Assembly: GCA_027923505.1 (NCBI GenBank)
Contig: BROI01000013.1
Coordinates: forward strand, 124,001-188,000
DNA from: Mayamaea pseudoterrestris
Taxonomy: Eukaryota
Length of the DNA: 64,000 bases
Reading direction: 5' to 3'
Positions within the stretch are counted from its first letter, which is position 1. Every line of letters starts with the position of its first letter. The position numbers and the translations under genes are program-made. Positions 12,442-46,289 of this stretch are shown piece after piece. Under the pieces are notes generated by a model. That model was not told where the DNA came from and searched no databases. It saw only the letters and a program-made list of their open reading frames with translations.

Positions 12442-12444
12442 CTG

Positions 12445-13524
12445 GAGCGTCCGGTAAAACGTCATTTTCGACAAAAATGTCGCACCGTTTCTAATTTTTA
12501 GTCGTGGATAAGATTTGATTGGCGAATACGCGCGCGTGCCAATCCAGTCTATGCTTGCGCGCCAACGGATCGCCAAATTTACTTTCAGACGTTGTCTGAA
12601 TCAGAAAGATACTTTCAGACATTGTCTGAATCAGAAAAGTACTTTCAGACACTGTCTGAAAGTGAAAGATACTTTCAGATTTTATCTGATTAAGCCTAAT
12701 TTTTCTGAAAGCGAAGTCAATGATATTTTTATAGTTTATGATTGGTCGTGGAGGCAGCTGTTTCCATTGATATGTCTCGATGGTATGACTGCCACCAACC
12801 AAGCAACCAAGTTTTCGACGACGACGACCATGGCACCTTCGACAAGCACTGACTAGCCATACAGCTTGTTGCAATACATGTTATAAATGGTCATTCGTGT
12901 CAAGAACCTGGCAGTATAGTAATGATTTCCCAGGAAAAGGATGATGTGTTGGCTGCATGAAGCGGAACTGGCGCCTGGGCCCCCATGAACACAAATCGTG
13001 TCGTCGTGAGCTCCACAGGCCCCTCACGACCAAACCAACTTGACAGATCCAATCGCCATATATTAGTTAGTCTATTTTGAAGATGAAATTATTAGAATTG
13101 GCCTTCTATAGCTTGAGCTGACAGTGGTAGTGCTTGTAAGCGTATGCACGGCAACGAGCGTTGTCGAAGGCATCAAGTTCACCGTCATGGATGGCTGCAC
13201 ATAATAAATGAGTTTTGTGACCATTGATATTTACAGCATCTGCAAAAAGTACTTTAAACGTAATAGTAACATACTTTCAGATTCTGTCTGAAACTAAAAA
13301 GTACTTTCAGTCATTGTCTGATTAAGCCAGATACTTTCAGACATTGTCTGAATCAGAAAGATACTTTCAGACATTGTCTGAAAGTAGCAAATCGCAGACT
13401 CTGAAACAGCTGGACGGGCTGGCGCGCCGCGCCGGCACGGCTTTCAACTGATCTTCGAAGCGTCAACGGAAAATTGAGTGCCAGTATGACATTTAGTCAC
13501 AAAAAGTCATTTTACCGGACGCTC
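12445..13524. mobile_element. Non-autonomous TIR element (MITE), PIF/Harbinger-like, copy 2
   Basis: Colinear but diverged copy of 11358-12441 with the same TIRs; CTG at 12442-12444 and 13525-13527. Confidence 0.85.
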
Positions 13525-13765
13525 CTGTGGCTTAAACAGTGGTGCCAAAAACTTTGATTTTCAACGTACGCTGACTGTCTCTCAAACAGTAGTGCCAAAA
13601 ACTTTGATTTTCAACGGACGATGACTGTGGCTTGAACAGTGGTGCCAAAAACTTTGATTTTCAACGGACGATGACTGTGGCTTGAACAGTGGTGCCAAAA
13701 ACTTTGATTTTCAACGTACGTCAACTGTCACTCAAAGTGTAGTGCTAAGAACTTTGAAATATCAA
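13525..13765. repeat. 50-bp minisatellite, ~4.8 copies
   Basis: Units start at 13525, 13575, 13625, 13675 and 13725 (CTGTGGCTTGAACAGTGGTGCCAAAAACTTTGATTTTCAACGGACGATGA). Confidence 0.92.
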
Positions 13766-26809: not shown

Positions 26810-28692
26810 TATGTGTTACAAGATGGTATGCCTGGCTGGTGTCTCAGGGGATGGCAATGTATTTGGTGACAACTTGTCACCAGTCTCTGCCCGCAGATGC
26901 TGTGACATTGAAATGCCCCTACAGCAAGCCCTGTAGGTGCCCAAATCACACCAGAATGGTGCCAACATCATTGTTCAGTCTGTGCTACAATGGGTTTGCC
27001 TAGTTGGTGTCTGTGTAGACTGCAATGTGACTGGTGAGAACTTGTCACCAGTCTCAGCCCACAGATGCCGTGACTTTCAAACACACCTACAGCAAGCCCT
27101 GTAGGTGCCCAAATTACACAAAAATAGTGCCAATATAAATTATGAGGCTGAGCTACAAGATGGTAAGCTTGGCTGGTGTCTCAGGGGATGGTAATGTATT
27201 TGTTGACAACTTGTCACCAGTCTCAGCTCGCAGATGCCGTGACATTCAAATGCCCCTACAGCAAGCCCTGTAGGTGCCCAAAATACACCAGAATGGTGCC
27301 AACATCATTATTCAGGCTGCGCTACAAGATGGTAGGCTTGGCTGGTGTCTCAGGGGATGGCAATGTATTTGGTGACAACTTGTCACCAGTCTCAGCCCGC
27401 GGATGCCGTGACATTCAAATGCCCCTACAGCAAGCCCTGTAGGTGCCCAAAATACACCAGAATGGTGCCAACATCATTATTCAGGCTGCGCTACAAGATG
27501 GTAGGCTTGGCTGGTGTCTCAGGGGATGGCAATGTATTTGGTGACAACTTGTCACCAGTCTCAGCCCGCAGATGCCGTGACATTCAAATGCCCCTACAGC
27601 AAGCCCTGTAGGTGCCCAAAATACACCAGAATGGAGCCAGCATCATTATTCAGGCTGCGCTACAAGATGGTAGGCTTGGCTGGTGTCTCAGGGGATGGCA
27701 ATGTATTTGGTGACAACTTGTCACCAGTCTCAGCCCGCAGATGCCGTGACATTCAAATGCCCCTACAGCAAGCCCTGTAGGTGCCCAAAATACACCAGAA
27801 TGGAGCCAGCATCATTATTCAGGCTGCGCTACAAGATGGTAGGCTTGGCTGGTGTCTCAGGGGATGGCAATGTATTTGGTGACAACTTGTCACCAGTCTC
27901 AGCCCGCAGATGCCGTGACATTCAAACGCCCCTACAGCAAGCTCTGTAGGTGCCCAAAATACACCAGAATGGTGCCAACATCATTATTCAGGCTGCGCTA
28001 CAAGATGGTAGGCTTGGCTGGTGTCTCAGGGGATGGCAATGTATTTGGTGACAACTTGTCACCAGTCTCAGCCCGCAGATGCCGTGACATTCAAACGCCC
28101 CTACAGCAAGCCCTGTAGGTGCCCAGAATACACCAGAATGGTGCCAACATCATTATTCAGGCTGCGCTACAAGATGGTAGGCTTGGCTGGTGTCTCAGGG
28201 GATGGCAATGTATTTGGTGACAACTTGTCACCAGTCTCAGCCCGCGGATGCCGTGACATTCAAACGCCCCTACAGCAAGCCCTGTAGGTGCCCAAAGTAC
28301 ACCAGAATGGTGCCAGCATCATTATTCAGGCTGCGCTACAAGATGGTAGGCTTGGCTGGTGTCTCAGGGGATGGCAATGTATTTGGTGACAACTTGTCAC
28401 CAGTCTCAGCCCGCAGATGCCGTGACATTCAAACGCCCCTACAGCAAGCCCTGTAGGTGCCCAAAATACACCAGAATGGTGCCAACATCATTATTCAGGC
28501 TGCGCTACAAGATGGTAGGCTTGGCTGGTGTCTCAGGGGATGGCAATGTATTTGGTGACAACTTGTCACCAGTCTCATCCCGCAAGATGCTTGTGCATTT
28601 CGTAACGCCCCTACAGCAAGCCCTGTAGGTGCCCGAATACACCAGAATGGTGCCATTTGTCAGGCTGCGCTACACGATGGTAGGCTCGGCTG
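26810..28692. repeat. 169-bp satellite, left block (~11 monomers; outermost two degenerate)
   Basis: Exact 169-bp period (27176, 27345, 27514, ...). Confidence 0.97.
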
Positions 28693-29068
28693 CGGCTGCA
28701 ACGATTCCTCACCCTCTGTAGTCGGTTTCCAAGTGAGCGGGATGATCAGTCCTTTACCTTGGTTTATCCTACAGGGGTCTTATCCTACAAAACGCTAGTT
28801 GATTAAGCAGTTCTCTAGAAAGTGAGTTGATTTACGATCGGTCGAGAAAGAGCGATTGATCAGATGGCTCTTTCAAGACCATTCACGATAGTGAATACTA
28901 ATCTTGTTTAATCGTGCCTGCGGCTGGCACACATGCAATATTTCAATGACGTAGTTGTGAGTAGATGTCTTTTCTGGTACCGCAACGGAGGTTCGAGTAC
29001 TATGCTCGTGCGCCCCCGGCGACGTCTAGGTTCGCGTCAAGCGACTGGACTAGATCGTCATTGTGACA
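28693..29068 (-). repeat. 3' LTR (outer ~105 bp not recognisable)
   Basis: 376-bp match to 35560-35935; preceded on the minus strand by PPT AAGGGGAG (29069-29076). Confidence 0.93.
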
Positions 29069-32000
29069 CTCCCCTTGTAGGTGTGCCAGGACAGGTGTAA
29101 GCTCAATGAGCTCCCCTGGAGTCGGCTCCCCTTGAGGCAGTGACGGGTCCATAAGGTAGAATTCGAGTTCTCCAGGATCCAAGGTTTCGCCACGCCAGAA
29201 CAGTAATGGTTTGAGTAGGGGCCATGCGTCGATGTAGGGTAGGTATTTGGTAAGCGCGTCGGAAGCGTTTTCCTTGCCAGCAATCTTGACGAACTTGATA
29301 ATTCCGGCTGCTACACACCACCGGATACGGTGATATGCGAGGGCATTGTGGCGCTTGGTGAGTGTGGATGTAGGCACTGTACACTGCGTGATGACTGATT
29401 GGTTATCACCGAGTAGCCATGATGAGGACTCGATGGGAACACCCATTGCCATGAGTGACGCGCGTATGCCTAGGATATGGTCGGTTGCAACGCGTCCGCT
29501 CATGAGTTCAGAGCCAAAGGTCGCGTGTTCGACGGTATCTTGAAGTTTGGCAAACCACTTGAACGGAGTCTGCTGAATGAAGTGAAGGATTCCAGTGCAT
29601 GCTTTGCCGGTGACTTTGCAATGCATCAGGTTGGCATCTTTGAGGGTAGTAAGGCGAACTGTCTTGCCCTTTGGTTTCGGCCAGAGTGAAAGGACCTCTT
29701 CCTTGGGGTTGTCGTAGACGGTTTGTTGCCAGTCATAGGTTGGTGAGTCGCCGAAGATGATTTCGTTCTGCGGCCACTGGGTGCGAAAGCGGATGGCTGC
29801 CTCGGGAAACTTGCGAAGGTAGCCGCATACACGCTTGACTCGGTCGAGGTGTCCAATGCGAGGCTGTCCGCGGAAGCGTGACAGGCAGGCGGTGGCACTG
29901 CAGATATCGAATCGGCCAAGGGTGATCGCCCACTGAAGGGCTCCGACAAACGATTGGTAGATCTTGATGTCCGACTCCCCTAAAAGAGACGTCTGGTCGA
30001 GTTCCGGGTGGTCATGAGAGTCGAGTGGAGAGCTGTACTTTGGTGGTGGTCCGTTGAATGTACGCTCGTAGTTGGCTAGAAGCTTGGTGATGTAGGTCTT
30101 GGTGCCCCAGAATAATGTTCCGTCAGGGTCGCGTCCGAAGTCGCCGCCTAGATGGTACTCTGGGCATCCGACGCCCTTGAGCTTGAACTTGTACTTGTTG
30201 CGAAGAATGTCGTAGAATGCGCCCGGGTCAATCATGATTGCCATAAGGTCGTCGACGTAAGTGCAAATGTATTCGTAACAATGGCCAGCATCGCGAATCC
30301 AAACGTCTGGATCGGCGTACGAGGCTTTGAAGCCTTCCGCTCGTAGCGCGTCCGCGAGCCGCTCGTGGAATCGTGCTCCGCTTGTGCGTAGGCCGTAGAG
30401 TGCTTTGTAGATGATGAGTGTGTGGCCTTCCAAGTCGCCGAACTCAGGTCCAGCGATGAAGTAAATCTTTTCTTTGGTTTTGGCTTCGAGGTAAGCATTT
30501 CCGATGTCGCCTACCATGGGAGTGAGTCCATTCAACTCCCCTATCGCCAGCGCTAGGCGCAGCGATTCGAGTGAAACGACGCTCGAGTATGAGTCGTCGA
30601 CAGGATCAGTAAGGTGTCCACCAGCAACCATCCGAGCCTTGTGACGAAAGTCTTGCTTGCAGTCGTAGACCCAGATAGTGCGAATCTTTTGATAGCCTTC
30701 GGGAGGCGCGGCATTCAATCCGAGATCAATGAAGGTGTCGTATTCGAACAGGCTTGACAGCTCTACCTTCTCCGCGTCGGTCCATTTGGTATGCCGGAGT
30801 TCTTCTTGGAACTTTCGAGCTTCCTTTGGATCGCGTGGTACCTTGACGCCGAACTTGTGTCGAATGCTGCGTCGTTGCTTGGCTTGGTTTACGGTTCGAC
30901 GGGCGATACGTGCGCGTCGGGCTGCGTCACGTAGGAACTTCCAGCCTTTCTTGTTGAGTAGTCCGTTCGCCTCGGCGTAGCGAGCGCAGGAAATGATGTC
31001 GTCGCGTGCTAAAGCGTTCAATGGCTCCCAAGTCGTTGAGTTGTCTTCCCACACGACTTTGATGTTATACATGGAGCCTTTCCATCCGTCGGATTGCTTT
31101 GTGAGTGGCCCTTCGTGCGATAGGATTGCTTTAAACGTCCAGTTGTGTTCAGGATCGTTTACCTTTGCTGCTTGGTCCTTTTCGAACAATTCGCAGAGTC
31201 GGATGTAATCGATGACTTCTTCAGCTTCGTTTTCGCCGATTTTGAGTAGGAACTTGATGTTATGATGGTTGGCTGCGTCCATGGTTTCGAGCTTGCGAAC
31301 GATTTCGGCTCGCATGGGCTCCCCATCCTGAGTATGCCAAGTAAACGTTTGATTGACAAGTTCTTCAGGTGAGAATGCAGGTAGTAAATCGATTGGTCCG
31401 CGTGGATGCGCTTGAGGACGGGCTGATGGCGGCCGCTGGTAGGGACTGCTTCCGACGAATGGTTCATCTCCGAAGTAGAACTCGGGTCCGTCGTCGGCCG
31501 TTTCAGTAGGAACGGGTTCATCAGTGGGTAGCCCCTCTTCTTCGGAGCTTTGGGTGCCGAGTTGGAAGCTCTCTTGGAGTCCACCTTCGGTGTATACGAA
31601 CATGTCGCCTTCGGGAGAAGCTTCGACTTGTGGTAAATCAAGACGGATGTTTGGATTAAGATCGTCTCGACGAGCCGTTACAATGCTTCGGGCGACAACT
31701 TGATGTGTTTCCTCGTCCAAGACCCAGTACGTTAGAGCATCACCGACGTTATCAGCTACCCCGACGAAACGTCCAGCGCGCTCATTGGTTTGGTTGAGCG
31801 ATGTAGAGTTTGCGCTGTATCGAACGGGCTGCCACCAGTGGAAGTTGAGGTAGGCAGAGATATCGGGTACTTCATTGTATACCTTTTGATATGGGGTCAT
31901 GCCACCGAGACGTGACTGGGACATGAGGGCGAGTAGAGCTACGATGTGTAGAGTGCATAGCAGCCAGGTTGGTGCAGGCGATCCGGTTCGATCCATGTTG

Positions 32001-34042
32001 ACATTGACAGTGCGCTCGACGTCGCCGATAACGCGTTCCGCTGGATTCTGCTGTTGGTTTTCCGGTTCGCTGACCCAGTGCTTACGGATCATAAACTGGC
32101 GTTCGATTTCTCGAATCGCTAGGCTGTTTTCTTCCTTGGCTCCGTCTGAGATTAGACCGAGTGGAGCACCGCAATCGTTGATAAACTGCATGAGCGTCGA
32201 CGGAACTTGTCCCTTGTTCGCCATCGGGTAGACGCGAATCAATCGGCTCTGCATGCAAACGTATAGTTGCGCTGCTTGGCATCCGGCATGTCCAGGAATA
32301 CCATCGTTGAGTGCGGGTGTGTCGGAGAATAGTGTGTCCATTGCAACTTCTTCAGGTAGTCGACGAACATTCGCACCCGGGAAACGAGTACGCAAATGGC
32401 GTCGCTGAGGAAAACGTTGCTCGGCGCGATAGAATTGGGTAGTGTTCTTGAGAGTCTCTTTGATACGATCGGTGGGTAGAAATCCGAAGTTGGGACGAAG
32501 CATTTGGTAATCTGGTCGCGTAGGAACCACAGTGCGTGCCGGTCGGCCGGCTAGTCCAGAATATGGATTGCCTCCAGCTTCTACAATTGCGGCATTGACC
32601 TGCAGCTCGTACGGATCGTACATTTCCCCGGCAGTGTCTTCGTATTCGAACGTTGCGTCGTTGGGATTCGGAGCATGGCTTGATCCGGATGTCGATATGG
32701 TTCCGCGTGAAAGTAGTGAGGGTAGTGAAATGTCATCCTGTTGTGGGTTCGTGTTGTAAGAAGCGTCGTCGGGTACAATGTCGGCAATGCGCTCGGATGG
32801 ACCCTCGGTTTCGACTTGCATAGGGTCCGACTCGTCGCTGAAGTGCTCCCATTCGTGGGTTTCGAGTCCGTTCCATGAGACGACGTTGAGTGTTTCGACT
32901 GAAAGGTCTTCGGGATATTCGTCTTGCGCGTTTCCGTTGACTTGGGTGTTGTTGACTAGTAGTGTTGGCGCTTCGTGATCGTCCGTCGCGGCTTCAATTT
33001 CCGCTTGGATCGAATCGTCATTAAGGTCTCCATCGTACTTTGACGGATCCCAAGGCGTGTCTGCCGTCATGACGACGTGCGGCAATGTGTCGAACTCGGC
33101 GTCGGTGAAATGATGCATCTTCAAATGGACCAAACCGTTCTGGACCGTGAATGGGATCAATGCTCCTTCGGGTGTAATCATGAGCTGCCGTCCGCCAAGT
33201 GCGCTTGCCTTGTCGAATACCTTGTTTCCGAAGTCCTCGAGCTGAACGACCGAATGAATGGTCGCGTCGGTTCCTCCGTCGGCGTACTGGTAGAAAATGC
33301 CAATGACGTACCCTTCCGTCGTCCAGATCTTGGCGGCGAATGTTCCGATGGGTAGTCCTTGCATCATGTGATTGTCGATTCCGGTAACGTCGGCGAACTG
33401 AGTCGTCGATCGATCCAAGCAAATCATGTCCTTACCAGCGATCGAACCGTTGGCACCGCGATCCATCATGGACGGGCTTCGAGACGTAATTGCACGAGTA
33501 ACATGGAACTGTGACGCGTGTGGCCCTTCGGTTGCCGGAGTATTCATACCCATAAGCGCATCTGCGTAGGATACGTTATGTGTAGCGACATGGTTTGTAG
33601 AACGACGCGTGACGTTGGTTGCGTTGGCACGATACATGTTGTATGTAACGTCGCCGACTCGTGCTTGATACACTGGTGGAGTAGATGGCTGGCTTCCTTG
33701 AGCGATCGAGCCTTGTTGCTGAGACTGAAACGCGCGCATGGCGGTTCCACGTGCTGGTGTAGTTCCGACTGTAGGCTGAGTAATCGCCGACATGGTTGAC
33801 ATCGCCGTCGTACTCGCCGGTGGAAGCTGAATTTGTGGAGTTGGTGGTGTATTAGTGTTGTTCGTGCTGGCTTGGCTTGCGTTCAGCTGCAGGCGCGCAC
33901 GTTCCGCTTCTCGGATTCGGCGAGTTTCTGCCTTGTGAGCTTCGCGTTGCTCCTCCGTCCAAGAGAACCATACATCCGGCTCGACTCGACGGTTCGATGC
34001 TGCAGAAGGATTGGTGCACTGTCCGCGTCCACCACCTCGTGG
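29000..34042 (-). CDS. Copia polyprotein (gag C-terminus, protease, integrase plus chromodomain-like module, RT, RNase H)
   Basis: PR DRGAN; INT DTLFSD..ISDGAKE..QNPAER; RT DIGNAYL, KALYGLRTSG, YVDDL; RH GDNQSV, KRHNALAYHRIR, ASDALTK. Frame is open upstream of Met 33802 to a stop at 34043-34045. Stop codon lies inside the 3' LTR. Confidence 0.95.
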   Translation of the reverse strand, partial: PRGGGRGQCTNPSAASNRRVEPDVWFSWTEEQREAHKAETRRIREAERARLQLNASQASTNNTNTPPTPQIQLPPASTTAMSTMSAITQPTVGTTPARGTAMRAFQSQQQGSIAQGSQPSTPPVYQARVGDVTYNMYRANATNVTRRSTNHVATHNVSYADALMGMNTPATEGPHASQFHVTRAITSRSPSMMDRGANGSIAGKDMICLDRSTTQFADVTGIDNHMMQGLPIGTFAAKIWTTEGYVIGIFYQYADGGTDATIHSVVQLEDFGNKVFDKASALGGRQLMITPEGALIPFTVQNGLVHLKMHHFTDAEFDTLPHVVMTADTPWDPSKYDGDLNDDSIQAEIEAATDDHEAPTLLVNNTQVNGNAQDEYPEDLSVETLNVVSWNGLETHEWEHFSDESDPMQVETEGPSERIADIVPDDASYNTNPQQDDISLPSLLSRGTISTSGSSHAPNPNDATFEYEDTAGEMYDPYELQVNAAIVEAGGNPYSGLAGRPARTVVPTRPDYQMLRPNFGFLPTDRIKETLKNTTQFYRAEQRFPQRRHLRTRFPGANVRRLPEEVAMDTLFSDTPALNDGIPGHAGCQAAQLYVCMQSRLIRVYPMANKGQVPSTLMQFINDCGAPLGLISDGAKEENSLAIREIERQFMIRKHWVSEPENQQQNPAERVIGDVERTVNVNMDRTGSPAPTWLLCTLHIVALLALMSQSRLGGMTPYQKVYNEVPDISAYLNFHWWQPVRYSANSTSLNQTNERAGRFVGVADNVGDALTYWVLDEETHQVVARSIVTARRDDLNPNIRLDLPQVEASPEGDMFVYTEGGLQESFQLGTQSSEEEGLPTDEPVPTETADDGPEFYFGDEPFVGSSPYQRPPSARPQAHPRGPIDLLPAFSPEELVNQTFTWHTQDGEPMRAEIVRKLETMDAANHHNIKFLLKIGENEAEEVIDYIRLCELFEKDQAAKVNDPEHNWTFKAILSHEGPLTKQSDGWKGSMYNIKVVWEDNSTTWEPLNALARDDIISCARYAEANGLLNKKGWKFLRDAARRARIARRTVNQAKQRRSIRHKFGVKVPRDPKEARKFQEELRHTKWTDAEKVELSSLFEYDTFIDLGLNAAPPEGYQKIRTIWVYDCKQDFRHKARMVAGGHLTDPVDDSYSSVVSLESLRLALAIGELNGLTPMVGDIGNAYLEAKTKEKIYFIAGPEFGDLEGHTLIIYKALYGLRTSGARFHERLADALRAEGFKASYADPDVWIRDAGHCYEYICTYVDDLMAIMIDPGAFYDILRNKYKFKLKGVGCPEYHLGGDFGRDPDGTLFWGTKTYITKLLANYERTFNGPPPKYSSPLDSHDHPELDQTSLLGESDIKIYQSFVGALQWAITLGRFDICSATACLSRFRGQPRIGHLDRVKRVCGYLRKFPEAAIRFRTQWPQNEIIFGDSPTYDWQQTVYDNPKEEVLSLWPKPKGKTVRLTTLKDANLMHCKVTGKACTGILHFIQQTPFKWFAKLQDTVEHATFGSELMSGRVATDHILGIRASLMAMGVPIESSSWLLGDNQSVITQCTVPTSTLTKRHNALAYHRIRWCVAAGIIKFVKIAGKENASDALTKYLPYIDAWPLLKPLLFWRGETLDPGELEFYLMDPSLPQGEPTPGELIELTPVLAHLQGECHNDDLVQSLDANLDVAGGARA

Positions 34043-35285
34043 CTACTTCGCGTGCCGCCGCGCGTCCAGAACCGCGACGGTTCCGTGCCGCTGCCATTTC
34101 CACGACCGTTTCCGCCTTGGCTGCTGCTTGGGGTGTGGCTAGTCGGTGTAGTGCCTCCGGTCGGTGGAGTACTCGCTTGTTGGATGTGGTTGTGTTTTTC
34201 TTTGGCGTGTGCGCTGCTGGTGCGTCGTCGCCGCGCTGCGGGTATCGCGAGCACGATGAGCTGCTTGTACCAGTCTTCGATGCTTTGATCTTGACCTTGC
34301 GCGTTGAGGCTACGCTCGGAACTGATTTCTTGGCGAAAGGCGTCGTTCCAGCGAACCGATTCGGACAACCACTTCTTGCGCGTCGCGTCGGGGACTGTTT
34401 CGCCGGTATAATCTTCGTAATCGAGCAAGGCATTCTCCCATTGAGTGAACCACGCAGTGTACGTGCTGCCGTGGTCGTTCGTCAGTTTCATGTCGCGAAC
34501 TCTTGACTTGGCTCGCTGCGCTGCGCGTTCGGCATTCTTGCCCGTCAAGTACATCTTGTGCATTTCCTTGAAGCACTTGTGGGCCGATCCATCCTTGTGG
34601 TGACAAATGATCGGGATGCAGTTGGCGACTTTGCAGTATGTCGTGATGATGTCAAATGCTGTGGCTTCTTGCGCTTTGAATACCTTGAGATCTTCAGGTG
34701 AAAGCGTTGCCGGTTTAAAGTCCGGATCGAAGACTCGCTCAAAGCCTTGGTTCTTGGCCGTTGCAAGCGTCTTGAGTCACCATTGACGGAATATGTACTC
34801 GTCTTTGAACTCGGTGTATGCTTTGGTGTTGACTCCGGCCGCGAGGCGTTTGTACTTCGACGTTCTGCAGAGCGTCGAGCTCGTTGAATCCGACTCATGT
34901 CGCTTTGGAATAGAGACTCTTCGGGCGATTCGGTTGCTTTGATGAGTCCTGCGAATGTGAGCGTCGCCCATTCCTTGAGTTCGCGCTCTTCCGATGCCCA
35001 TTGACGAAGGCGGGTAATGGTTCGAATAACCGTGATGTGCGTTTTGGATTCCTTCAGTACCGACTCGATGTCCTTGATGGTCAGCATTAGGAATGGCTCC
35101 GTGAGTAGACGTCCGTCCGGGAGGAGTGACTTGATGGCGACGATGACTGGAAGCTTCATGAACTTGTCGTTGTTGACGGTCTTCTGCTTGTACATGCTTT
35201 TCAATCCGACGGCGAGCGAGTTGTCTTCCGCGTCATCTTGCGTGACATTGGGTCCGTCGGGAGGATCATCTTCGACGACGGTCAT
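34043..35285 (-). pseudogene. Disrupted gag region of the retrotransposon
   Basis: Gag-like text FKDEYIFRQW*LKTLATAKNQGFERVFDP..WFTQWENALLDYE has an in-frame TGA at 34777-34779, plus frameshifts near ~34900 and ~34050-34090. Confidence 0.75.
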
Positions 35286-35444
35286 GTTGTTGATTGATTG
35301 GTACGGGATGAATATATACCGCGAGAATAATCGAGGAAGTCGATTCTATCCGAGCGATGCTTGCAATTCGACTCGGTCTTCAATCCCTCCGTCTGCCGGA
35401 CTAGTGTAGATTGAAGCCTCGGACAGGAAATGAACGAGGGATGT

Positions 35445-35453
35445 CCGCTGCCA
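35445..35453 (-). promoter_or_regulatory. Primer binding site, probably tRNA-Leu
   Basis: TGGCAGCGG one base inside the 5' LTR end; complementary to a tRNA 3' end CCGCTGCCA as in eukaryotic tRNA-Leu. Confidence 0.7.
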
Positions 35454-35454
35454 A

Positions 35455-35935
35455 TGTAGTGTGCAACGAAACGACGGGAGTGGTCGTCACCAGCGCCCGA
35501 GAGAGTTGATTGTAAAGACCAAGACTGTGTGATCTGACACGATGCAGTTCCAGTTCGTACGGCTGCAACGATTCCTCACCCTCTGTAGTCGGTTTCCAAG
35601 TGAGCGGGATGATCAGTCCTTTACCTTGGTTTATCCTACAGGGGTCTTATCCTACAAAACGCTAGTTGATTAAGCAGTTCTCTAGAAAGTGAGTTGATTT
35701 ACGATCGGTCGAGAAAGAGCGATTGATCAGATGGCTCTTTCAAGACCATTCACGATAGTGAATACTAATCTTGTTTAATCGTGCCTGCGGCTGGCACACA
35801 TGCAATATTTCAATGACGTAGTTGTGAGTAGATGTCTTTTCTGGTACCGCAACGGAGGTTCGAGTACTATGCTCGTGCGCCCCCGGCGACGTCTAGGTTC
35901 GCGTCAAGCGACTGGACTAGATCGTCATTGTGACA
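35455..35935 (-). repeat. 5' LTR, 481 bp
   Basis: TGT...ACA termini; adjacent PBS; outer end abuts satellite TCACC. Confidence 0.88.
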
Positions 35936-38900
35936 TCACCAGTCTCAGCCCGCAGATGCCGTGACATTCAAACGCCCCTACGGCAAGCCCTGTAGGTGCC
36001 CAAAATACACCAGAATGGTGCCAACATCATTATTCAGGCTGCGCTACAAGATGGTAGGCTTGGCTGGTGTCTCAGGGGATGGCAATGTATTTGGTGACAA
36101 CTTGTCACCAGTCTCAGCCCGCGGATGCCGTGACATTCAAACGCCCCTACAGCAAGCCCTGTAGGTGCCCAAAATACACCAGAATGGTGCCAACATCATT
36201 ATTCAGGCTGCGCTACAAGATGGTAGGCTTGGCTGGTGTCTCAGGGGATGGCAATGTATCTGGTGACAACTTGTCACCAGTCTCAGCCCGCAGATGCTGT
36301 GACATTCAAACGTCCCTACAGCAAGCCCTGTAGGTGCCCAAAATACACCAGAATGGTGCCAACATCATTATTCAGGCTGCGCTACAAGATGGTAGGCTTG
36401 GCTGGTGTCTTAGGGGATGGCAATGTATTTGGTGACAACTTGTCACCAGTCTCAGCCTGCGGATGCTGTGACATTCTAATGCCCCTACAGCAAGCCCTGT
36501 AGGTGCCCAAAATACACCAGAATGGTGCCAACATCATTACTCAGGCTGCGCTCCAAGATGGTAGGCTTGGCTGGTGTCTCAGGGGATGGCAATGTATTTG
36601 GTGACAACTTGTCACCAGTCTCAGCCCGCGGATGCCGTGACATTCAAACGCCCCTACAGCAAGCCCTGTAGGTGCCCAAAATACACCGGAATGGTGCCAA
36701 CATCCTTATTCAGGCTGCGCTACAAGATGGTTGGCTTGGCTGGTGTCTCAGGGGATGGCAATGTATCTGGTGACAACTTGTCACCAGATTCAAACCCTAA
36801 CCCTAACTGTAGGTGCCCAAATCACACCAGAATGGTGCCAACATCATTATTCAGGCTGCGCTACAAGATGGTAGGCTTGGCTGGTGTCTTAGGGGATGGC
36901 AATGTATTTGGTGACAACTTGTCACCAGTCTCAGCCCGCAGATGCTGTGACATTCAAATGCCCCTACAGCAAGCCCTGTAGGTGCCCAAAATACACCAGA
37001 ATGGTGCCAACATCATTATTCAGGCTGCGCTACAAGATGGTAGGCTTGGCTGGTGTCTCAGGGGATGGCAATGTATTTGGTGACAACTTGTCACCAGTCT
37101 CAGCCCGCAGATGCCGTGACATTCAAACGCCCCTACGGCAAGCCCTGTAGGTGCCCAAAATACACCAGAATGGTGCCAACATCATTATTCAGGCTGCGCT
37201 ACAAGATGGTAGGCTTGGCTGGTGTCTCAGGGGATGGCAATGTATTTGGTGACAACTTGTCACCAGTCTCAGCCTGCAGATGCCGTGACATTCAAACGCC
37301 CCTACAGCAAGCCCTGTAGGTGCCCAAAATACACCAGAATGGTGCCAACATCCTTATTCAGGCTGCGCTACAAGATGGTAGGCTTGGCTGGTGTCTCAGG
37401 GGATGGCAATGTATTTGGTGACAACTTGTCACCAGTCTCAGCCCGCGGATGCCGTGACATTCAAACGCCCCTACAGCAAGCCCTGTAGGTGCCCAAAATA
37501 CACCAGAATGGTGCCAACATCATTAGTCAGGCTGCGCTACAAGATGGTAGGCTTGGCTGGTGTCTCAGGGGATGGCAATGTATTTGGTGACAACTTGTCA
37601 CCAGTCTCAGCCCGCAGATGCCGTGACATTCAAACGTCCCTACAGCAAGATCTGTAGGTGCCCAAAATACACCAGAATGGTGCCAACATCATTATTTAGG
37701 CTGCGCTACAAGAAGGTAGTCTTGCCTGGTGTCTTAGGGGATGGCAATGTTTTTGGTGACAACTTGTCACCAGTCTCAGCCTGCGGATGCTGTGACATTC
37801 AAATGCCCCTACAGCAAGCCCTGTAGGTGCCCAAAATACACCAGAATGGTGCCAACATCATTATTCAATCTGCGCTGCAAGATGGTAGTCTTGCCTGGTG
37901 TCTCAGGGGATGGCAATGTATTTGGTGACAACTTGTCACCAGTCTCAGCCCGCAGATGCCGTGACATTCAAACGTCCCTACAGCAAGATCTGTAGGTGCC
38001 CAAAATACACCAGAATGATGCCAACATCATTATTCAGGTTGCGCTACAAGATGGTAGTCTTGCCTGGTGTCTTAGGGGATGGCAATGTATTTGGTGACAA
38101 CTTGTCACCAGTCTCAGCCCGCAGATGCTGTGACATTCAAATGCCCCTACAGCAAGCCCTGTAGGTGCCCAAAATACACCAGAATGGTGCCAACATCATT
38201 ACTCAGGCTGCGCAACAAGATGGTAGGCTTGGCTGGTGTCTCAGGGGATGGCAATGTATTTGGTGACAACTTGTCACCAGTCTCAGCCCGCAGATGCCGT
38301 GACATTCAAACGTCCCTACAGCAAGATCTGTAGGTGCCCAAAATACACCAGAATGGTGCCAACATCATTATTCAGGCTGCGCTACAAGATGGTAGTCTTG
38401 CCTGGTGTCTTAGGGGATGGCAATGTATTTGGTGACAACTTGTCACCAGTCTCAGCCCGCAGATGCTGTGACATTCAAATGCCCCTACAGCAAGCCCTGT
38501 AGGTGCCCAAAATACACCAGAATGGTGCCAACATCATTACTCAGGCTGCGCAACAAGATGGTAGGCTTGGCTGGTGTCTCAGGGGATGGCAATGTATTTG
38601 GTGACAACTTGTCACCAGTCTCAGCCCGCAGATGCCGTGACATTCAAACGCCCCTACAGCAAGCCCTGTAGGTGCCCAAAATACACCAGAATGGTGCCAA
38701 CATCATTATTCAGGCTGCGCTACAAGATGGTAGGCTTGGCTGGTGTCTCAGGGGATGGCAATGTATTTGGTGACAACTTGTCACCAGTCTCAGCCCGCGG
38801 ATGCCGTGACATTCAAACGCCCCTACAGCAAGCCCTGTAGGTGCCCAAAATACACCAGAATGGTGCCAACATCATTATTCAGGCTGCGCTACAAGATGGT

Positions 38901-41900
38901 AGGCTTGGCTGGTGTCTCAGGGGATGGCAATGTATCTGGTGACAACTTGTCACCAGTCTCAGCCCGCAGATGCCGTGACATTCAAACGTCCCTACAGCAA
39001 GCCCTGTAGGTGCCCAAAATACACCAGAATGGTGCCAACATCATTTTTCAGGCTGCGCTACAAGATGGTAGGCTTGGCTGGTGTTTCAGGGGATGGCAAT
39101 GTATCTGGTGACAACTTGTCACCAGGCTCAGCCCGCAGATGCCGTGACATTCAAACGTCCCTACAGCAAGATCTGTAGGTGCCCAAAATACACCAGAATG
39201 GTGCCAACATCATTATTCAGGCTGCGCTACAAGAGGGTAGTCTTGCCTGGTGTCTTAGGGGATGGCAATGTATTTGGTGACAACTTGTCACCAGTCTCAG
39301 CCTGCGGATGCCGTGACATTCAAACGTCCCTACAGCAAGATCTGTAGGTGCCCAAAATACACCAGAATGGTGCCAACATCATTATTCAGGCTGCGCTACA
39401 AGATGGTAGTCTTGCCTGGTGTCTTAGGGGATGGCAATGTATTTGGTGACAACTTGTCACCAGTCTCAGCCTGCGGATGCCGTGACATTCAAACGCCCCT
39501 ACGGCAAGCCCTGTAGGTGCCCAAAATACACCAGAATGGTGCCAACATCATTAGTCAGGCTGCGCTACAAGATGGTAGGCTTGGCTGGTGTCTCAGGGGA
39601 TGGCAATGTATCTGGTGACAACTTGTCACCAGTCTCAGCCCGCAGATGCCGTGACATTCAAACGTCCCTACAGCAAGATCTGTAGGTGCCCAAAATACAC
39701 CAGAATGGTGCCAACATCATTAGTCAGGCTGCGCTACAAGATGGTAGGCTTGGCTGGTGTCTCAGGGGATGGCAATGTATTTGGTGACAACTTGTCACCA
39801 GTCTCAGCCTGCGGATGCCGTGACATTCAAACGCCCCTACGGCAAGCCCTGTAGGTGCCCAAAATACACCAGAATGGTGCCAACATCATTATTCAGGCTG
39901 CGCTACAAGATGGTAGGCTTGGCTGGTGTCTCAGGGGATGGCAATGTATTTGGTGACAACTTGTCACCAGTCTCAGCCCGCGGATGCCGTGACATTCAAA
40001 CGCCCCTACAGCAAGCCCTGTAGGTGCCCAAAATACACCAGAATGGTGCCAACATCATTAGTCAGGCTGCGCTACAAGATGGTAGGCTTGGCTGGTGTCT
40101 CAGGGGATGGCAATGTATTTGGTGACAACTTGTCACCAGTCTCAGCCCGCGGATGCCGTGCCATTCAAACGCCCCTATAGCAAGCCCTGTAGGTGCCCAA
40201 AATACACCAGAATGGTGCCAACATCATTAGTCAGGCTGCGCTACAAGATGGTAGGCTTGGCTGGTGTCTCAGGGGATGGCAATGTATCTGGTGACAACTT
40301 GTCACCAGGCTCAGCCCGCAGATGCCGTGACATTCAAACGTCCCTACAGCAAGATCTGTAGGTGCCCAAAATACACCAGAATGGTGCCAACATCATTATT
40401 CAGGCTGCGCTACAAGATGGTAGGCTTGGCTGGTGTCTCAGGGGATGGCAATGTATTTGGTGACAACTTGTCACCAGTCTCAGCCTGCGGATGCTGTGAC
40501 ATTCAAATGCCCCTACAGCAAGCCCTGTAGGTGCCCAAAATACACCAGAATGGTGCCAACATCATTATTCAAGCTGCGCTACAAGATGGTAGTCTTGGCT
40601 GGTGTCTCAGGGGATGGCAATGTATTTGGTGACAACTTGTCACCAGTCTCAGCCCGCAGATGCCGGGACATTCAAATGCCCCTACAGCAAGCCCTGTAGG
40701 TGCCCAAAATACACCAGAATGGTGCCAACATCATTATTCAGGCTGCGCTACAAGATGGTAGGCTTGGCTGGTGTCTCAGGGGATGGCAATGTATTTGGTG
40801 ACAACTTGTCACCAGTCTCAGCCCGCAGATGCCGTGACATTCAAACGCCCCTACAGCAAGCCCTGTAGGTGCCCAAAATACACCAGAATGGTGCCAACAT
40901 CATTATTCAGGCTGCGCTACAAGATGGTAGGCTTGGCTGGTGTCTCAGGGGATGGCAATGTATTTGGTGACAACTTGTCACCAGTCTCAGCCTGCGGATG
41001 CCGTGACATTTAAACGCCCCTACAGCAAGCCCTGTAGGTGCCCAAATACACCAGAATGGTGCCAACATCATTAGTCAGGCTGCGCTACAAGATGGTAGGC
41101 TTGCCTGGTGTCTTAGGGGATGGCAATGTATTTGGTGACAACTTGTCACCAGTCTCAGCCTGCGGATGCCGTGACATTCAAACGCCCCTACGGCAAGCCC
41201 TGTAGGTGCCCAAAATACACCAGAATGGTGCCAACATCATTATTCAGGCTGCGCTACAAGATGGTAGGCTTGGCTGGTGTCTCAGGGGATGGCAATGTAT
41301 TTGGTGACAACTTGTCACCAGTCTCAGCCTGCGGATGCCGTGACATTCAAATGCCCCTACAGCAAGCCCTGTAGGTGCCCAAAATACACCAGAATGGTGC
41401 CAACATCATTATTCAGGCTGCGCTACAAGATGGTAGGCTTGGCGGGTGTCTCAGGGGATGGCAATGTATTTGGTGACAACTTGTCACCAGTCTCAGCTCG
41501 CAGATGCCGTGACATTCAAACGCCCCTACAGCAAGCTTTGTAGGTGCCCAAAATACTCCAGAATGGTGCCAACATCATTATTCAGGCTGCGCTACAAGAT
41601 GGTAGGCTTGGCTGGTGTCTCAGGGGATGGCAATGTATTTGGTGACAACTTGTCACCAGTCTCAGCCTGCGGATGCCGTGACATTCAAACGCCCCTACAG
41701 CAAGCCCTGTAGGTGCCCAAAATACACCAGAATGGTGCCAACATCATTATTCAGGCTGCGCTACAAGATGGTAGGCTTGGCTGGTGTCTCAGGGGATGGC
41801 AATGTATTTGGTGACAACTTGTCACCAGTCTCAGCCTGCGGATGCCGTGACATTCAAACGCCCCTACAGCAAGCCCTGTAGGTGCCCAAATACACCAGAA

Positions 41901-44900
41901 TGGTGCCAACATCATTAGTCAGGCTGCGCTACCAGATGGTAGGCTTGGCTGGTGTCTCAGGGGATGGCAATGTATTTGGTGACAACTTGTCACCAGTCTC
42001 AGCCCGCGGATGCCGTGACATTCAAACGCCCCTACAGCAAGCCCTGTAGGTGCCCAAAATACACCAGAATGGTGCCAACATCATTATTCAGGCTGCGCTA
42101 CAAGATGGTAGGCTTGGCTGGTGTCTCAGGGGATGGCAATGTATCTGGTGACAACTTGTCACCAGTCTCAGCCCACAGATGCAGTGACATTCAAACGTCC
42201 CTACAGCAAGCCCTGTAGGTGCCCAAAATACACTAGAATGGTGCCAACATCATTAGTCAGGCTGCGCTACAAGATGGTAGGCTTTGCTAATGTCTCAGGG
42301 GATGGCAATGTATTTGGTGACAACTTGTCACCAGTCTCAGCCTGCGGATGCCGTGACATTCAAACGCCCCTACAGCAAGCCCTGTAGGTGCCCAAAATAC
42401 ACCAGAATGGTGCCAACATCATTAGTCAGGCTGCGCTACAAGATGGTAGTCTTGCCTGGTGTCTTAGGGGATGGCAATGTATTTGGTGACAACTTGTCAC
42501 CAGTCTCAGCCTGCGGATGCTGTGACATTCAAATGCCCCTACAGCAAGCCCTGTAGGTGCCCAAAATACACCAGAATGGTGCCAACATCATTATTCAGGC
42601 TGCTCAACAAGATGGTAGGCTTGGCTGGTGTCTCAGGGGATGGCAATGTATTTGGTGACAACTTGTCACCAGTCTCAGCCCGCAGATGCCGTGACATTCA
42701 AACGCCCCTACAGCAAGCCCTGTAGGTGCCCAAAATACACCAGAATGGTGCCAACATCATTATTCAGGCTGCGCTACAAGATGGTAGGCTTGGCTGGTGT
42801 CTCAGGGGATGGCAATGTATTTGGTGACAACTTGTCACCAGTCTCAGCCTGCGGATGCCGTGACATTTAAACGCCCCTACAGCAAGCCCTGTAGGTGCCC
42901 AAAATACACCAGAATGGTGCCAACATCATTAGTCAGGCTGCGCTACAAGATGGTAGGCTTGGCTGGTGTCTCAGGGGACGGCAATGTATTTGGTGACAAC
43001 TTGTCACCAGTCTCAGCCCGCGGATGCCGTGACATTCAAACGCCCCTATAGCAAGCCCTGTAGGTGCCCAAAATACACCGGAATGGTGCCAACATCCTTA
43101 TTCAGGCTGCGCTACAAGATGGTTGGCTTGGCTGGTGTCTCAGGGGATGGCAATGTATTTGGTGACAACTTATCACCAGTCTCAGCCCGCAGATGCCGTG
43201 ACATTCAAACGTCCCTACAGCTAGATCTGTAGGTGCCCAAAATACACCAGAATGGTGCCAACATCATTATTCAGGCTGCGCTACAAGATGGTAGTCTTGC
43301 CTGGTGTCTTAGGGGATGGCAATGTATTTGGTGACAACTTGTCACCAGTCTCAGCCTGCGGATGCTGTGACATTCAAATGCCCCTACAGCAAGCCCTGTA
43401 GGTGCCCAAAATACACCAGAATGGTGCCAACATCATTATTCAATCTGCGCTGCAAGATGGTATGCTTGGCTGGTGTCTCAGGGGATGGCAATGTATTTGG
43501 TGACAACTTGTCACCAGTCTCAGCCCGCAGATGCCGTGACATTCAAACATCCCTACAGCAAGATCTGTAGGTGCCCAAAATACACCAGAATGGTGCCAAC
43601 ATCATTATTCAGGCTGCGCTACAAGATGGTAGTCTTGCCTGGTGTCTTAGGGGATGCCAATGTATTTGGTGACAACTTGTCACCAGCCCGCAGATGCTGT
43701 AGATGCCGTGACATTCAAACATCCCTACAGCAAGATCTGTAGGTGCCCAAAATACACCAGAATGGTGCCAACATCATTATTCAGGCTGCGCTACAAGATG
43801 GTAGTCTTGCCTGGTGTCTTAGGGGATGCCAATGTATTTGGTGACAACTTGTCACCAGCCCGCAGATGCTGTGACATTCAAATGCCCCTACAGCAAGCCC
43901 TGTAGGTGCCCAAAATACACCAGAATGGTGCCAACATCATTACTCAGGCTGCGCTACAAGATGGTAGGCTTGGCGGGTGTCTCAGGGGATGGCAATGTAT
44001 TTGGTGACAACTTGTCACCAGTCTCAGCTCGCAGATGCCGTGACATTCAAACGCCCCTACGGCAAACTTTGTAGGTGCCCAAAATACACCAGAATGGTGC
44101 CAACATCATTATTCAGGCTGCGCTACAAGATGGTAGGCTTGGCTGGTGTCTCAGGGTTTGGCAATGTATTTGGTGACAACTTGTCACCAGTCTCAGCCTG
44201 CGGATGCCGGACATTCAAATTCCCCTACAGCAAGCCCTGTATGTGCCCAAAATACACCAGCATGGTGTTAACATCATTATTCAGGCTGCGCTACAAGATG
44301 GTAGGCTTGGCTGGTGTCTCAGGGGATGGCAATGTATTTGGTGACAACTTGTCACCAGTCTCAGCCTGCGGATGCCGTGACATTCAAACGCCCCTACAGC
44401 AAGCCCTGTAGGTGCCCAAATACACCAGAATGGTGCCAATATCATTGTTCAGGCTGCGCTACCAGATGGTAGGCTTGGCTGGTGTCTCAGGGGATGGCAA
44501 TGTATTTGGTGACAACTTGTCACCAGTCTCAGCCCGCGGATGCCGTGACATTCAAACGCCCCTACAGCAAGCCCTGTAGGTGCCCAAAATACACCAGAAT
44601 GGTGCCAACATCATTATTCAGGCTGCGCTACAAGATGGTAGGCTTGGCTGGTGTCTCAGGGGATGGCAATGTATTTGGTGACAACTTGTCACCAGTCTCA
44701 GCCCGCAGATGCAGTGACATTCAAACGCCCCTACAGCAAGATCTGTAGGTGCCCAAAATACACCAGAATGGTGCCAACATCATTATTCAGGCTGCGCTAC
44801 AAGATGGTAGGCTTTGCTAATGTCTCAGGGGATGGCAATGTATTTGGTGACAACTTGTCACCAGTCTCAGCCTGCGGATGCCGTGACATTCAAAAGCCCC

Positions 44901-46289
44901 TACAGCAAGCCCTGTAGGTGCCCAAAATACACTAGAATGGTGCCAACATCATTAGTCAGGCTGCGCTACAAGATGGTAGGCTTTGCTAATGTCTCAGGGG
45001 ATGGCAATGTATTTGGTGACAACTTGTCACCAGTCTCAGCCTGCGGATGCCGTGACATTCAAAAGCCCCTACAGCAAGCCCTGTAGGTGCCCAAAATACA
45101 CCAGAATGGTGCCAACATCATTAGTCAGGCTGCGCTACAAGATGGTAGTCTTGCCTGGTGTCTTAGGGGATGGCAATGTATTTGGTGACAACTTGTCACC
45201 AGTCTCAGCCTGCGGATGCTGTGACATTCAAATGCCCCTACAGCAAGCCCTGTAGGTGCCCAAAATACACCAGAATGGTGCCAACATCATTATTCAGGCT
45301 GCGCTACAAGATGGTAGTCTTGCCTGGTGTCTCAGGGGATGGCAATGTATTTGGTGACAACTTGTCACCAGTCTCAGCCCGCAGATGCCGTGACATTCAA
45401 ACGTCCCTACAGCAAGATCTGTAGGTGCCCAAAATACACCAGAATGGTGCCAACATCATTATTCAGGCTGCGCTACAAGATGGTAGACTTGCCTGGTGTC
45501 TTAGGGGATGCCAATGTATTTGGTGACAACTTGTCACCAGTCTCAGCCTGCGGATGCTGTGACATTCAAATGCCCCTACAGCAAGCCCTGTAGGTGCCCA
45601 AAATACACCAGAATGGTGCCAACATCATTAGTCAGGCTGCGCTACAAGATGGTAGGCTTGGCGGGTGTCTCAGGGGATGGCAATGTATTTGGTGACAACT
45701 TGTCACCAGTCTCAGCCTGCGGATGCCGTGACATTCAAACGCCCCTACGGCAAGCCCTGTAGGTGCCCGAAATACACCAGAATGGTGCCAACATCATTAT
45801 TCAGGCTGCGCTACAAGATGGTAGGCTTGGCTGGTGTCTCAGGGGATGGCAATGTGTTTGGTGACAACTTGTCACCAGTCTCAGCCCACGGATGCTGTGA
45901 CATTCAAACGCCCCTACAGCAAGCCCTGTAGGTGCCCAAAATACACCAGAATGGTGCCAACATCATTAGTCAGGCTGCGCTACAAGATGGTTGGCTTGGC
46001 TTGTGTCTCAGGGAATGGCAATGTATCTGGTGACAACTTGTCACCAGTCTCAGCCCGCAGATGCCGTGACATTCAAACGTCCCTACAGCAAGATCTGTAG
46101 GTGCCCAAAATACACCAGAATGGTGCCAACATCATTAGTCAGGCTGCGCTACAAGATGGTAGGCTTGGCTGGTGTCTCAGGGGATGGCAATGTATTTGGT
46201 GACAACTTGTCACCAGTCTCAGCCTGCGGATGCCGTGACATTCAAACGCCCCTACAGCAAGCCCTGTAGGTGTCCAAAATACACCAGAA
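35936..46289. repeat. 169-bp satellite, right block (~61 monomers)
   Basis: Continuous 169-bp period with scattered variants; abrupt end at 46289. Confidence 0.98.

What the first reader, a model, noticed from the sequence alone, without database searches (positions are those of the whole stretch)
28693..35935. Young chromodomain-bearing copia element inserted in the satellite palindrome: candidate centrophilic retrotransposon
Seen: between the integrase core and RT (~31010-31141) lies WTFKAILSHEGP..YNIKVVWEDNSTTWEPL, a chromodomain pattern. The integrase lacks an evident HHCC finger. The LTRs look identical over 376 bp, and the insertion point is in the TTG|TCACCA arm of the main satellite dyad. 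Known: chromodomain integrases are typical of Ty3/gypsy chromoviruses that target heterochromatin, and similar modules have been noted in diatom CoDi copia elements. Inference: a copia lineage that reads chromatin marks to target this satellite, paralleling plant centromeric retrotransposons. The LTR tip (GTGACA) also matches a hexamer present twice per monomer.
Basis: partly seen in the sequence, partly recalled or inferred. Interest (0 to 1): 0.75.

Follow-up and report, generated by a model that had tools for sequence, protein, structure and literature searches.

The report
Copia retrotransposon inserting at satellite hotspot
A young jumping gene of a known algal (diatom-type) copia group carries a chromodomain-like part and, like its relatives, sits mostly inside repeat islands, where insertions pile up at one spot of a 169-base repeat; this suggests chromatin-guided insertion, but the repeat does not look like a centromere and the domain's role is unproven.

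Summary
The element is real: a young Ty1/copia with a 401-bp LTR. The left copy is cut to 376 bp and there is no target duplication. Behind the integrase core lie a Tudor/SH3-like barrel and a chromo-fold domain lacking the third cage aromatic. A chromodomain in diatom CoDi-A copia is published, and the scan noted this module earlier on other DNA of this genome without testing targeting. I tested it. Of 29 other family insertions, 26 lie in or beside repeats and 5 in this satellite. Sister families with the module hit the satellite in 12 of 57 junctions, module-less copia in 0 of 28 (p=0.007). But module-less copia use other satellites (5 of 28), the module is confined to one clade, and enrichment vanishes against a non-coding null. 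The strongest new result is a phase hotspot: 6 of 15 clean sites from four families fall at monomer positions 12-14, beside the palindrome rather than in it (Rayleigh p=0.0002; weaker, 0.016-0.065, for unascertained sites only). Arrays are dispersed, several per contig and 51% GC, so 'centrophilic' is unsupported. Best reading: insertion into methylated repeat islands at a fixed nucleosome phase.

The parts
35535..35935 (-). 5' LTR, 401 bp, TG...CA; its first base is the only true integration junction of this copy (target would be monomer positions 1-5)
   Evidence: 401-base contig in run X5
28693..29068 (-). 3' LTR, identical to the 5' LTR but lacking its last 25 bp; no target-site duplication
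29069..29076 (-). polypurine tract before the 3' LTR
   Evidence: same tract before 3' LTRs of other copies
34043..35285 (-). gag region, broken over three frames with one stop; many small indels against sister copies and public contigs (probably assembly noise)
29000..34042 (-). open pol frame, 1680 codons stop to stop
33446..33472 (-). aspartic protease active-site motif (named from recall of the copia D-x-G motif)
   Evidence: conserved in P0001-P0005
32024..32353 (-). integrase catalytic core with D569, D633, E669; preceded by a GAG-pre-integrase-like stretch without His/Cys zinc ligands
   Evidence: some relatives carry PF00665; DDE assignment by motif, recalled
31160..31381 (-). small beta-barrel plus helix, Tudor/SH3-like (first half of the integrase C-terminal module)
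   Evidence: AlphaFold models; best Z 5.9 to ERCC6L2 Tudor (rmsd 2.8, 58 aligned), with SH3/KOW-type barrels within 1 Z
30953..31153 (-). chromo-fold domain; cage positions 1 and 2 aromatic (W968, W998), position 3 not
30857..30940 (-). long basic helix between the chromo fold and RT
30059..30703 (-). reverse transcriptase, copia type (RVT_2)
29246..29644 (-). RNase H region (motifs recalled)
26817..28692 (+). 169-bp satellite, 11 copies; the last monomer before the element is heavily altered
35936..46289 (+). 169-bp satellite, about 61 copies, mostly 93-100% to a reference monomer; 51% GC; CpG o/e 0.34

Best explanation
A young Ty1/copia of the diatom CoDi-I/CoDi-A type that integrates mainly into the genome's small methylated repeat islands (nucleosome-length satellites of several families and nests of other LTR elements), not into a centromere. 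Shown: the copy distribution, and a fixed phase of integration within the 169-bp unit. Inferred: the satellite units (163-180 bp, or about 350-bp dimers) carry phased nucleosomes, and the intasome lands at one phase, probably the linker or nucleosome edge, which coincides with the CpG cluster at positions 16-38. Also inferred, less firmly: the barrel-plus-chromo module at the integrase C-terminus tethers the intasome to this chromatin by a non-canonical contact (unmethylated tail, nucleosome surface, DNA or a partner protein), since the methyl-lysine cage is incomplete. Selection against insertions in genes adds to the pattern.
For: 26 of 29 other family events lie in or beside repeats: p 2e-17 against a 17% genome share, 5e-6 against a 49% share of non-coding DNA. 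Four events are nested in the family itself, three of them stacked on C15. 71% of 38 family flanks have CpG o/e under 0.6, against 18% of 100 random points. Sister module families: 12 of 57 junctions in the 169-bp satellite, against 0 of 28 for module-less copia and 9 of 100 random points, at equal 110-bp flanks (Fisher p 0.007 and 0.049). Phase: 15 clean sites from four families and both orientations give R 0.71, p 1.7e-4; 6 of 15 lie at positions 12-14 (p 2e-5); distinct sites only, p 0.005. A base-preference profile from 51 other junctions is flat and does not predict the hotspot. Sites in three other satellites are also phased (p 0.02, or 0.008 with one truncated end). CpG positions 16, 19, 25 and 38 are among the most variable of the monomer (22-48%). 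Linker methylation by DNMT5 is stated for other algae (PMC9998398). Chromo fold.
Against: Against a non-coding null (15-26%), neither the family (5 of 29) nor its sisters (10-12 of 57) are enriched in the 169-bp satellite. Module-less copia are enriched in other satellites (5 of 28 against 1 of 100 random, p 0.002), and total satellite use does not differ between them and the sisters (5 of 28 against 14 of 57, p 0.59). Their four sites lie within 5-26 bp of the module-bearing sites in the same satellites, so phasing may not need the module. Flank CpG o/e does not separate controls from sisters (p 0.34). The phase test is weaker on unascertained sites only (9 sites p 0.016; 11 with degenerate edges p 0.065). 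Three family copies sit in unique, ORF-bearing DNA. Module and lineage are fully confounded. Fold scores are under Z 8. No nucleosome, methylation or ChIP data were available.
Confidence: 0.55

Rival explanations
1. No active targeting. Elements insert widely, selection removes those in the gene-dense two thirds of the genome, and survivors collect in repeat islands. The phase reflects only where any integrase can reach DNA on a phased array. The chromo module has another job.
For: 63-68 of 100 random points lie in long ORFs. No enrichment in the 169-bp satellite over a non-coding null. Module-less copia also sit in satellites and at the same phases.
Against: 26 of 29 in repeats exceeds even a 60% share (p 5e-4). 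Module-less families have 0 of 28 in the largest satellite, where 4-7 are expected under the non-coding null (p 0.01-0.0002). Many copies have LTRs 99-100% alike, leaving little time for purging.
Confidence: 0.27
2. One reading: the 169-bp arrays are centromeric and the element is centrophilic, like CRM, ECR, CoLT or Tal1.
For: Monomer length typical of centromeric repeats (PMC11735389). The satellite is abundant, 3.6-9% of the genome. The four best LTR-plus-leader matches all adjoin it. Centrophilic copia exist in stramenopiles (PMC7082073; 10.64898/2025.12.07.692804).
Against: Several arrays per contig, hundreds of kb apart and between genes: C13 at about 151-170, 269, 844 and 910 kb; C1 at about 610-630, 1686, 2175-2192 and 2443 kb. 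Only 1 telomere tract was found, so contigs are at most chromosome pieces and arrays per chromosome are at least this many. GC 51% against low-GC, repeat-free centromeres in P. tricornutum. The family uses four or more unrelated satellites. Centrophilic families show one cluster per chromosome or contig; this family does not.
Confidence: 0.1
3. Sequence- or structure-directed choice. The integrase is drawn by the palindrome, or by the LTR-tip-like hexamers, two of which form an inverted pair centred at about position 14-15.
For: The hexamer occurs three times per monomer; 1 of 256 TG-starting hexamers does so. The hotspot at 12-14 lies near the centre of that pair (read from the monomer). One sister family's LTR tip shares 8 bases with the palindrome.
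Against: Post hoc. No base preference in the first 16 bases of 51 other junctions. The other phased satellites show no such pair at their sites (by eye). The monomer folds no better than shuffles (z -1.6).
Confidence: 0.08

Closest known systems
CoDi-A (Llorens et al. 2009, PMC2774666) = CoDi-I (Ustyantsev et al. 2017, PMC5348765; lineage CoDiI named by Maumus et al. 2009, PMC2806351): diatom Ty1/copia with a putative chromodomain at the integrase C-terminus
   Same: Copia domain order, chromo-fold domain behind the integrase core, TG...CA LTR within a small genome; the 5-bp duplication matches the example given for a P. tricornutum CoDi insertion.
   Different: The passages read give no insertion-site data and do not mention the upstream Tudor/SH3-like barrel, the missing HHCC ligands or the incomplete cage. 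The published alignment is an image I could not read. No direct RT comparison with named CoDi sequences was possible.
Chromoviruses (Ty3/gypsy) with group I or II chromodomains; Ectocarpus ECR elements
   Same: Chromodomain fused to the integrase C-terminus, proposed to steer integration to heterochromatin or centromeres.
   Different: Other superfamily. The module here sits inside pol, before RT. It keeps cage aromatics 1 and 2 but not 3, so it fits neither group I (all three) nor group II (lacks 1 and 3). ECR marks one region per chromosome without satellite.
Tal1 (ALE-lineage copia of Arabidopsis), CoLT (Phytophthora) and brown-algal centrophilic copia
   Same: Copia elements with a strong regional preference; Tal1 inserts in a 178-bp satellite and its integrase C-terminus sets the preference.
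   Different: Those follow CENH3 chromatin or form one cluster per chromosome, and Tal1 has no chromodomain. Here the targets are dispersed GC-neutral islands of several satellite families.
Nested and nucleosome-correlated insertion of plant LTR elements (Jedlicka et al. 2019, PMC6911290)
   Same: Self-nesting, weak palindrome preference and a link to nucleosome pattern are general for LTR elements (abstract).
   Different: Here a single position of a tandem-repeat unit is reused by four families.

Membership tests
Ty1/copia | LTRs, with integrase upstream of RT/RNase H, and an RVT_2-type RT | tested here: met
Ty1/copia | 4-6 bp target-site duplication | tested here: inconclusive
   absent at this copy because the left end is deleted; 5-6 bp at 7 of 9 two-ended sister copies
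Ty1/copia | HHCC zinc finger before the integrase core (usual, recalled; not strictly defining) | tested here: not met
   0 of 120 relatives match the pattern; no Cys in the region
CoDi-A / CoDi-I | chromodomain at the integrase C-terminus of a copia | tested here: met
   fold match of residues 80-146; module in 120 of 120 closest RT relatives
CoDi-A / CoDi-I | RT groups with named CoDi1-2-3-4-7 elements | not testable with these tools
   No named CoDi sequence was returned by any tool; hits are unnamed and the supplements gave no sequence. Module-bearing RTs form one clade, 100/100, apart from 8 module-less copia of this genome.
CoDi-A / CoDi-I | diatom host | not tested
   Inferred from the compact gene-dense genome, from recall of gene types, and from earlier scan notes; no taxonomic call was run
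Chromodomain fold | three-stranded sheet followed by a helix, superposing on chromodomains | tested here: met
   pLDDT 86-98 over the domain. Rows 1-16 of 48,161 chains are chromo or chromoshadow bearers (GEN1's chromodomain recalled): Chp1 Z 6.3, rmsd 2.1, 52 aligned; dHP1 Z 6.3, rmsd 1.9, 50 aligned, 24% identity. All under Z 8; Foldseek best E 7.5e-3, to cpSRP43 chromodomains.
Group I (HP1-like, methyl-lysine binding) chromodomain | three cage aromatics | tested here: not met
   Position 1 W/F/Y in 55 of 63, position 2 W in 62 of 63, position 3 G in 48 and N in 6, with no aromatic among the six commonest residues. Mapping to HP1 is by sequence pattern, recalled; definition from PMC3605345.
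Group II chromovirus chromodomain | lacks first and third aromatic | tested here: not met
   first aromatic kept
Tudor / Royal-family reader | Tudor barrel distinct from other SH3-like barrels, with an aromatic pocket | tested here: inconclusive
   best Z 5.9 (Tudor), tied within 1 with VapX, CarD and designed SH3 barrels
Centrophilic retrotransposon | copies confined to one region per chromosome | tested here: not met
   LTRs at several separate places on C1, C2, C10 and C23; arrays dispersed
Centrophilic retrotransposon | insertion follows CENH3 chromatin | not testable with these tools
   no ChIP data

The most novel reading that the evidence does not exclude
The CoDi-A integrase ends in a two-part Royal-family-like reader (Tudor-like barrel plus cage-less chromo fold) that docks on phased nucleosomes of the current dominant 169-bp satellite and places the insertion at one spot in the linker. 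Module-bearing and module-less copia would then divide the genome's satellite families between them. This would be the first functional evidence for the copia chromodomain and a natural base-resolution readout of reader-guided integration.
Probability: 0.28. Interest if true: 0.75.

Novelty: new member of a known kind. Interest (0 to 1): 0.5.

Why it matters
The chromodomain of diatom copia has been noted since 2009, and heterochromatin targeting was proposed without site data in the passages I read. This genome supplies a natural test bed: several young module-bearing families, several module-less ones, and dispersed nucleosome-length satellites in which each insertion can be given a phase. 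The reuse of positions 12-14 by independent families cannot come from selection against gene disruption, so it reports on how the intasome meets chromatin. A single MNase or methylation map plus a peptide-binding screen of a 180-residue module would decide between reader-guided and access-guided integration. It also warns against calling every satellite-plus-chromo-element island a centromere.

Tried and rejected
Pfam on the pol frame and the module: only RVT_2; no chromo, Tudor or rve hit. PDB sequence search with the 63-member profile: 2 hits, both chance level. Foldseek: nothing at E<=0.001. ESM Atlas: 30 unnamed clusters only, no family. Palindrome as the target: rejected, 3 of 19 sites. 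LTR-tip hexamer as a general target signal: not supported. Ten-base periodicity of sites: p 0.01-0.08 with repeated sites, 0.09-0.43 with distinct sites, over four periods tried; not claimed. Monomer hairpin stability: not above shuffles. Read contigs are collapsed at the LTR and satellite and do not span either junction, so heterozygosity and the left-end deletion could not be checked. Rows dropped: of 30 module-less loci, 2 had no definable 3' end (L183, L205). Of 60 sister loci, 3 had none (L245, L249, L264), and several kept rows end in truncated LTRs. In the phase test, 4 of 19 sites with poor alignment to the monomer were set aside for the 'clean' set (all 19: p 2.4e-4). The truncated L221 was left out, and the two ends of the C23 copy were counted once. 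A first filter also dropped the off-phase site at 79; it was restored. RT copies were taken from the 150 scored of 308 candidates, in listing order; the random points came from contigs C1-C37, some only up to a lower-bound length. Host-gene Pfam scans failed on my coordinate errors and were dropped. Literature searches that found no report of insertion phase in a satellite for diatom copia, or of a Tudor-like barrel in their integrase: (open-licence library only). The CoDi chromodomain alignments in two supplements are images I could not see and may include the barrel.
Full report
1. What is in the window. The window is G000:C13:124001-188000 of a 30.6-Mb, 41-contig gene-dense genome. I take the host for a diatom by inference and from earlier scan notes; I ran no taxonomic test. 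A 169-bp tandem array runs 26817-28692 and 35936-46289, between ordinary genes. Between the two parts lies a minus-strand Ty1/copia element with an open pol frame at 29000-34042 and RVT_2 at E 3.6e-21. The LTRs match without a difference over 376 bp. The true LTR is 401 bp, as shown by the other copies and by a 401-base contig in run X5. The left LTR lacks 25 bp, 38 bp of satellite are missing and there is no duplication, so only the right junction, at TTG|TCACC, marks an integration site. gag is broken. Its many small indels against sister copies and against contigs of four runs suggest assembly noise.

2. The module. Integrase core residues D569, D633 and E669 (motifs recalled) are followed by a linker and a 180-residue module. 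It has 1,430 relatives at E<=0.001 and is present in 120 of 120 closest RT relatives, none of which has an HHCC pattern. Sequence libraries do not name it. The AlphaFold model (mean pLDDT 90.9) has two parts. Residues 80-146 match chromo and chromoshadow domains: the top 16 rows are all such proteins, Z 5.9-7.0, for example dHP1 Z 6.3, rmsd 1.9, 50 aligned. The scores are under the tool's caution line of 8, but the list is uniform and the sequence pattern agrees, so I accept the fold. Residues 4-77 form a small barrel, best matched by Tudor domains (Z 5.9) but tied with SH3/KOW-type barrels; its class is open. Of the three cage aromatics, the first is kept in 55 of 63 sequences and the second in 62 of 63, while the third position is mostly Gly. 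It is thus neither a group I nor a group II chromodomain as defined in PMC3605345 (passages), and canonical methyl-lysine reading is doubtful. A chromodomain in diatom CoDi-A copia integrases is published (PMC2774666, passages; PMC5348765, passages), and earlier scan notes on other pieces of this genome saw both halves.

3. Where the family inserts. Pattern searches gave 35 LTR starts and 37 LTR ends. I fetched their surroundings and resolved 30 events, counting this one. Six are in the 169-bp satellite (window, C27:21597, C23:511230-518496 with a duplication, C1:2444308, C1:1690991, C19:431449). Seven are in other satellites of 163 bp or about 350 bp (four with 5-bp duplications, one at a truncated end). 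Four are nested in the family itself, eight are in other elements (two classed by eye), two lie beside such islands and three are in unique ORF-bearing DNA. For a null I drew 100 random points: 11 were in tandem arrays (9 in the 169-bp family), 3 in copia pol and 63-68 in long ORFs. A 20-mer count puts the 169-bp family at 3.6-5.2%. Leaving out the window, 26 of 29 events in or beside repeats is far above the genome share and above a non-coding null (p 5e-6 at 49%). But 5 of 29 in the 169-bp satellite is only modestly above the genome share (p 0.004-0.11) and not above its share of non-coding DNA. All these satellites are CpG-depleted (o/e 0.13-0.37, against 1.1 in genes).

4. Is the module responsible? 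An RVT_2 search gave a control: 30 top-ranked copia loci with no trace of the module, 28 with a definable 3' end. Three sister families do carry it: two by HMM on 20 of 20 copies, the third by its translated module in one copy and its RT clade. They gave 57 junctions from 60 loci. With equal 110-bp flanks, the 169-bp satellite holds 12 of 57 sister junctions, 0 of 28 controls and 9 of 100 random points (p 0.007). Other satellites hold 2 of 57, 5 of 28 and 1 of 100. So module-bearing families use the dominant satellite and module-less ones do not, but overall satellite use is alike (p 0.59). The contrast could also come from lineage, since the module-bearing RTs form one clade (100/100), or from age and array turnover.

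5. The phase hotspot. Mapping junctions on the monomer (TCACC = 1-5) gave 19 sites. The 15 clean ones have target centres at 3, 12, 12, 12, 13, 13, 14, 18, 20, 22, 33, 35, 79, 139 and 145: R 0.71, p 1.7e-4, with six in a 3-bp window (p 2e-5), from four families and both orientations. Distinct sites alone give p 0.005. The nine sites found without regard to the satellite give p 0.016, or 0.065 with two degenerate edges added. The palindrome spans -12 to 5 and holds 3 of 19 sites. A base profile of 51 other junctions is flat and ranks position 12 as 95th of 169. Four of the five CpGs of the monomer lie at 16-38 and are decaying. Sites in three other satellites are also in phase with their roughly 176-bp subunits (p 0.02), and four module-less sites fall within 5-26 bp of the module-bearing ones. 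Selection against gene disruption cannot create a phase, so this is site choice at integration; the simplest cause is a phased nucleosome array. That the spot is the linker rests on analogy with DNMT5 linker methylation in other algae (PMC9998398, passages) and is not shown.

6. Centromere? Arrays occur several times per contig, hundreds of kb apart. Only one telomere tract was found, so a chromosome holds at least that many arrays. They are 51% GC. P. tricornutum centromeres are low-GC and lack repeats (10.1101/096016, abstract and passages). Centrophilic families in brown algae and oomycetes give one peak per chromosome or contig (10.64898/2025.12.07.692804, passages; PMC11541908, passages; PMC7082073, passages). 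The brown-algal paper also notes that non-centrophilic relatives keep an intact chromodomain. Tal1 shows that a copia integrase C-terminus can set satellite targeting through CENH3 chromatin (PMC11735389, passages). A subset of arrays could still be centromeric; I give that about 0.1. A centromere atlas preprint has no mention of diatoms (10.64898/2026.09.17.752431, term search only).

7. Verdict. The element is a new member of a known kind, the chromo-bearing diatom copia; membership was not tested against named sequences (lineage names from PMC2806351, passages). What this work adds is the genome-wide site data: strong confinement to repeat islands, a difference between module-bearing and module-less families in the dominant satellite, and a reused insertion phase. 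Self-nesting and nucleosome-linked site choice are known in general for plant LTR elements (PMC6911290, abstract). I found no report for diatoms in six searches of an open-licence library. The causal role of the module is plausible, untested and confounded. Interest 0.5.

Noticed in passing
window 36781-36921: One 141-bp monomer has a short telomere-like patch (about two and a half hexamers) in place of roughly positions 8-55, which overlaps the insertion hotspot; it could be a healed break at the same accessible spot. A period of 141 also appears in random locus L092.
   Followed up: partly
G000 C1:2370486, C10:82081, C10:84532, C10:471675, C2:1810345, C2:1811081, C22:283124, C23:175001: At least five further satellite families that did not cluster with the 169-bp repeat by BLAST, all with units of 163-181 bp or about 350-bp dimers and all CpG-depleted: repeated convergence on nucleosome length.
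   Followed up: partly
G000:C15:248818-260205: Four LTRs, each followed by a different internal piece of the family or of a sister family: a stack of nested insertions whose upstream halves are missing.
   Followed up: partly
G000:C5:566438 and C22:287714: Two LTRs share the same 900-bp upstream flank (99.8%) but have different downstream flanks, one unique and one satellite; this suggests LTR-LTR recombination between contigs or a segmental duplication.
   Followed up: no
G000:C10:108911 and window 28693: Two copies have the 3' LTR cut at nearly the same place (377 and 376 of 401) where it meets a satellite.
   Followed up: no
L176-L181, L182, L188: Module-less copia families with very long open frames (up to 2,809 codons) and an acidic insert before RT.
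   Followed up: no
G000:C37:199799: A family copy whose 5' flank is a gene-like ORF in unique DNA, a possible gene insertion; the element runs off the contig end.
   Followed up: no
window 11494-13757: Short 30-bp and 50-bp tandem repeats in an AT-richer stretch (GC 0.41-0.46) between genes.
   Followed up: no
LTR ends of sister families (L209, L226-L244): Two sister families appear to end in AA or TA instead of the usual CA.
   Followed up: no
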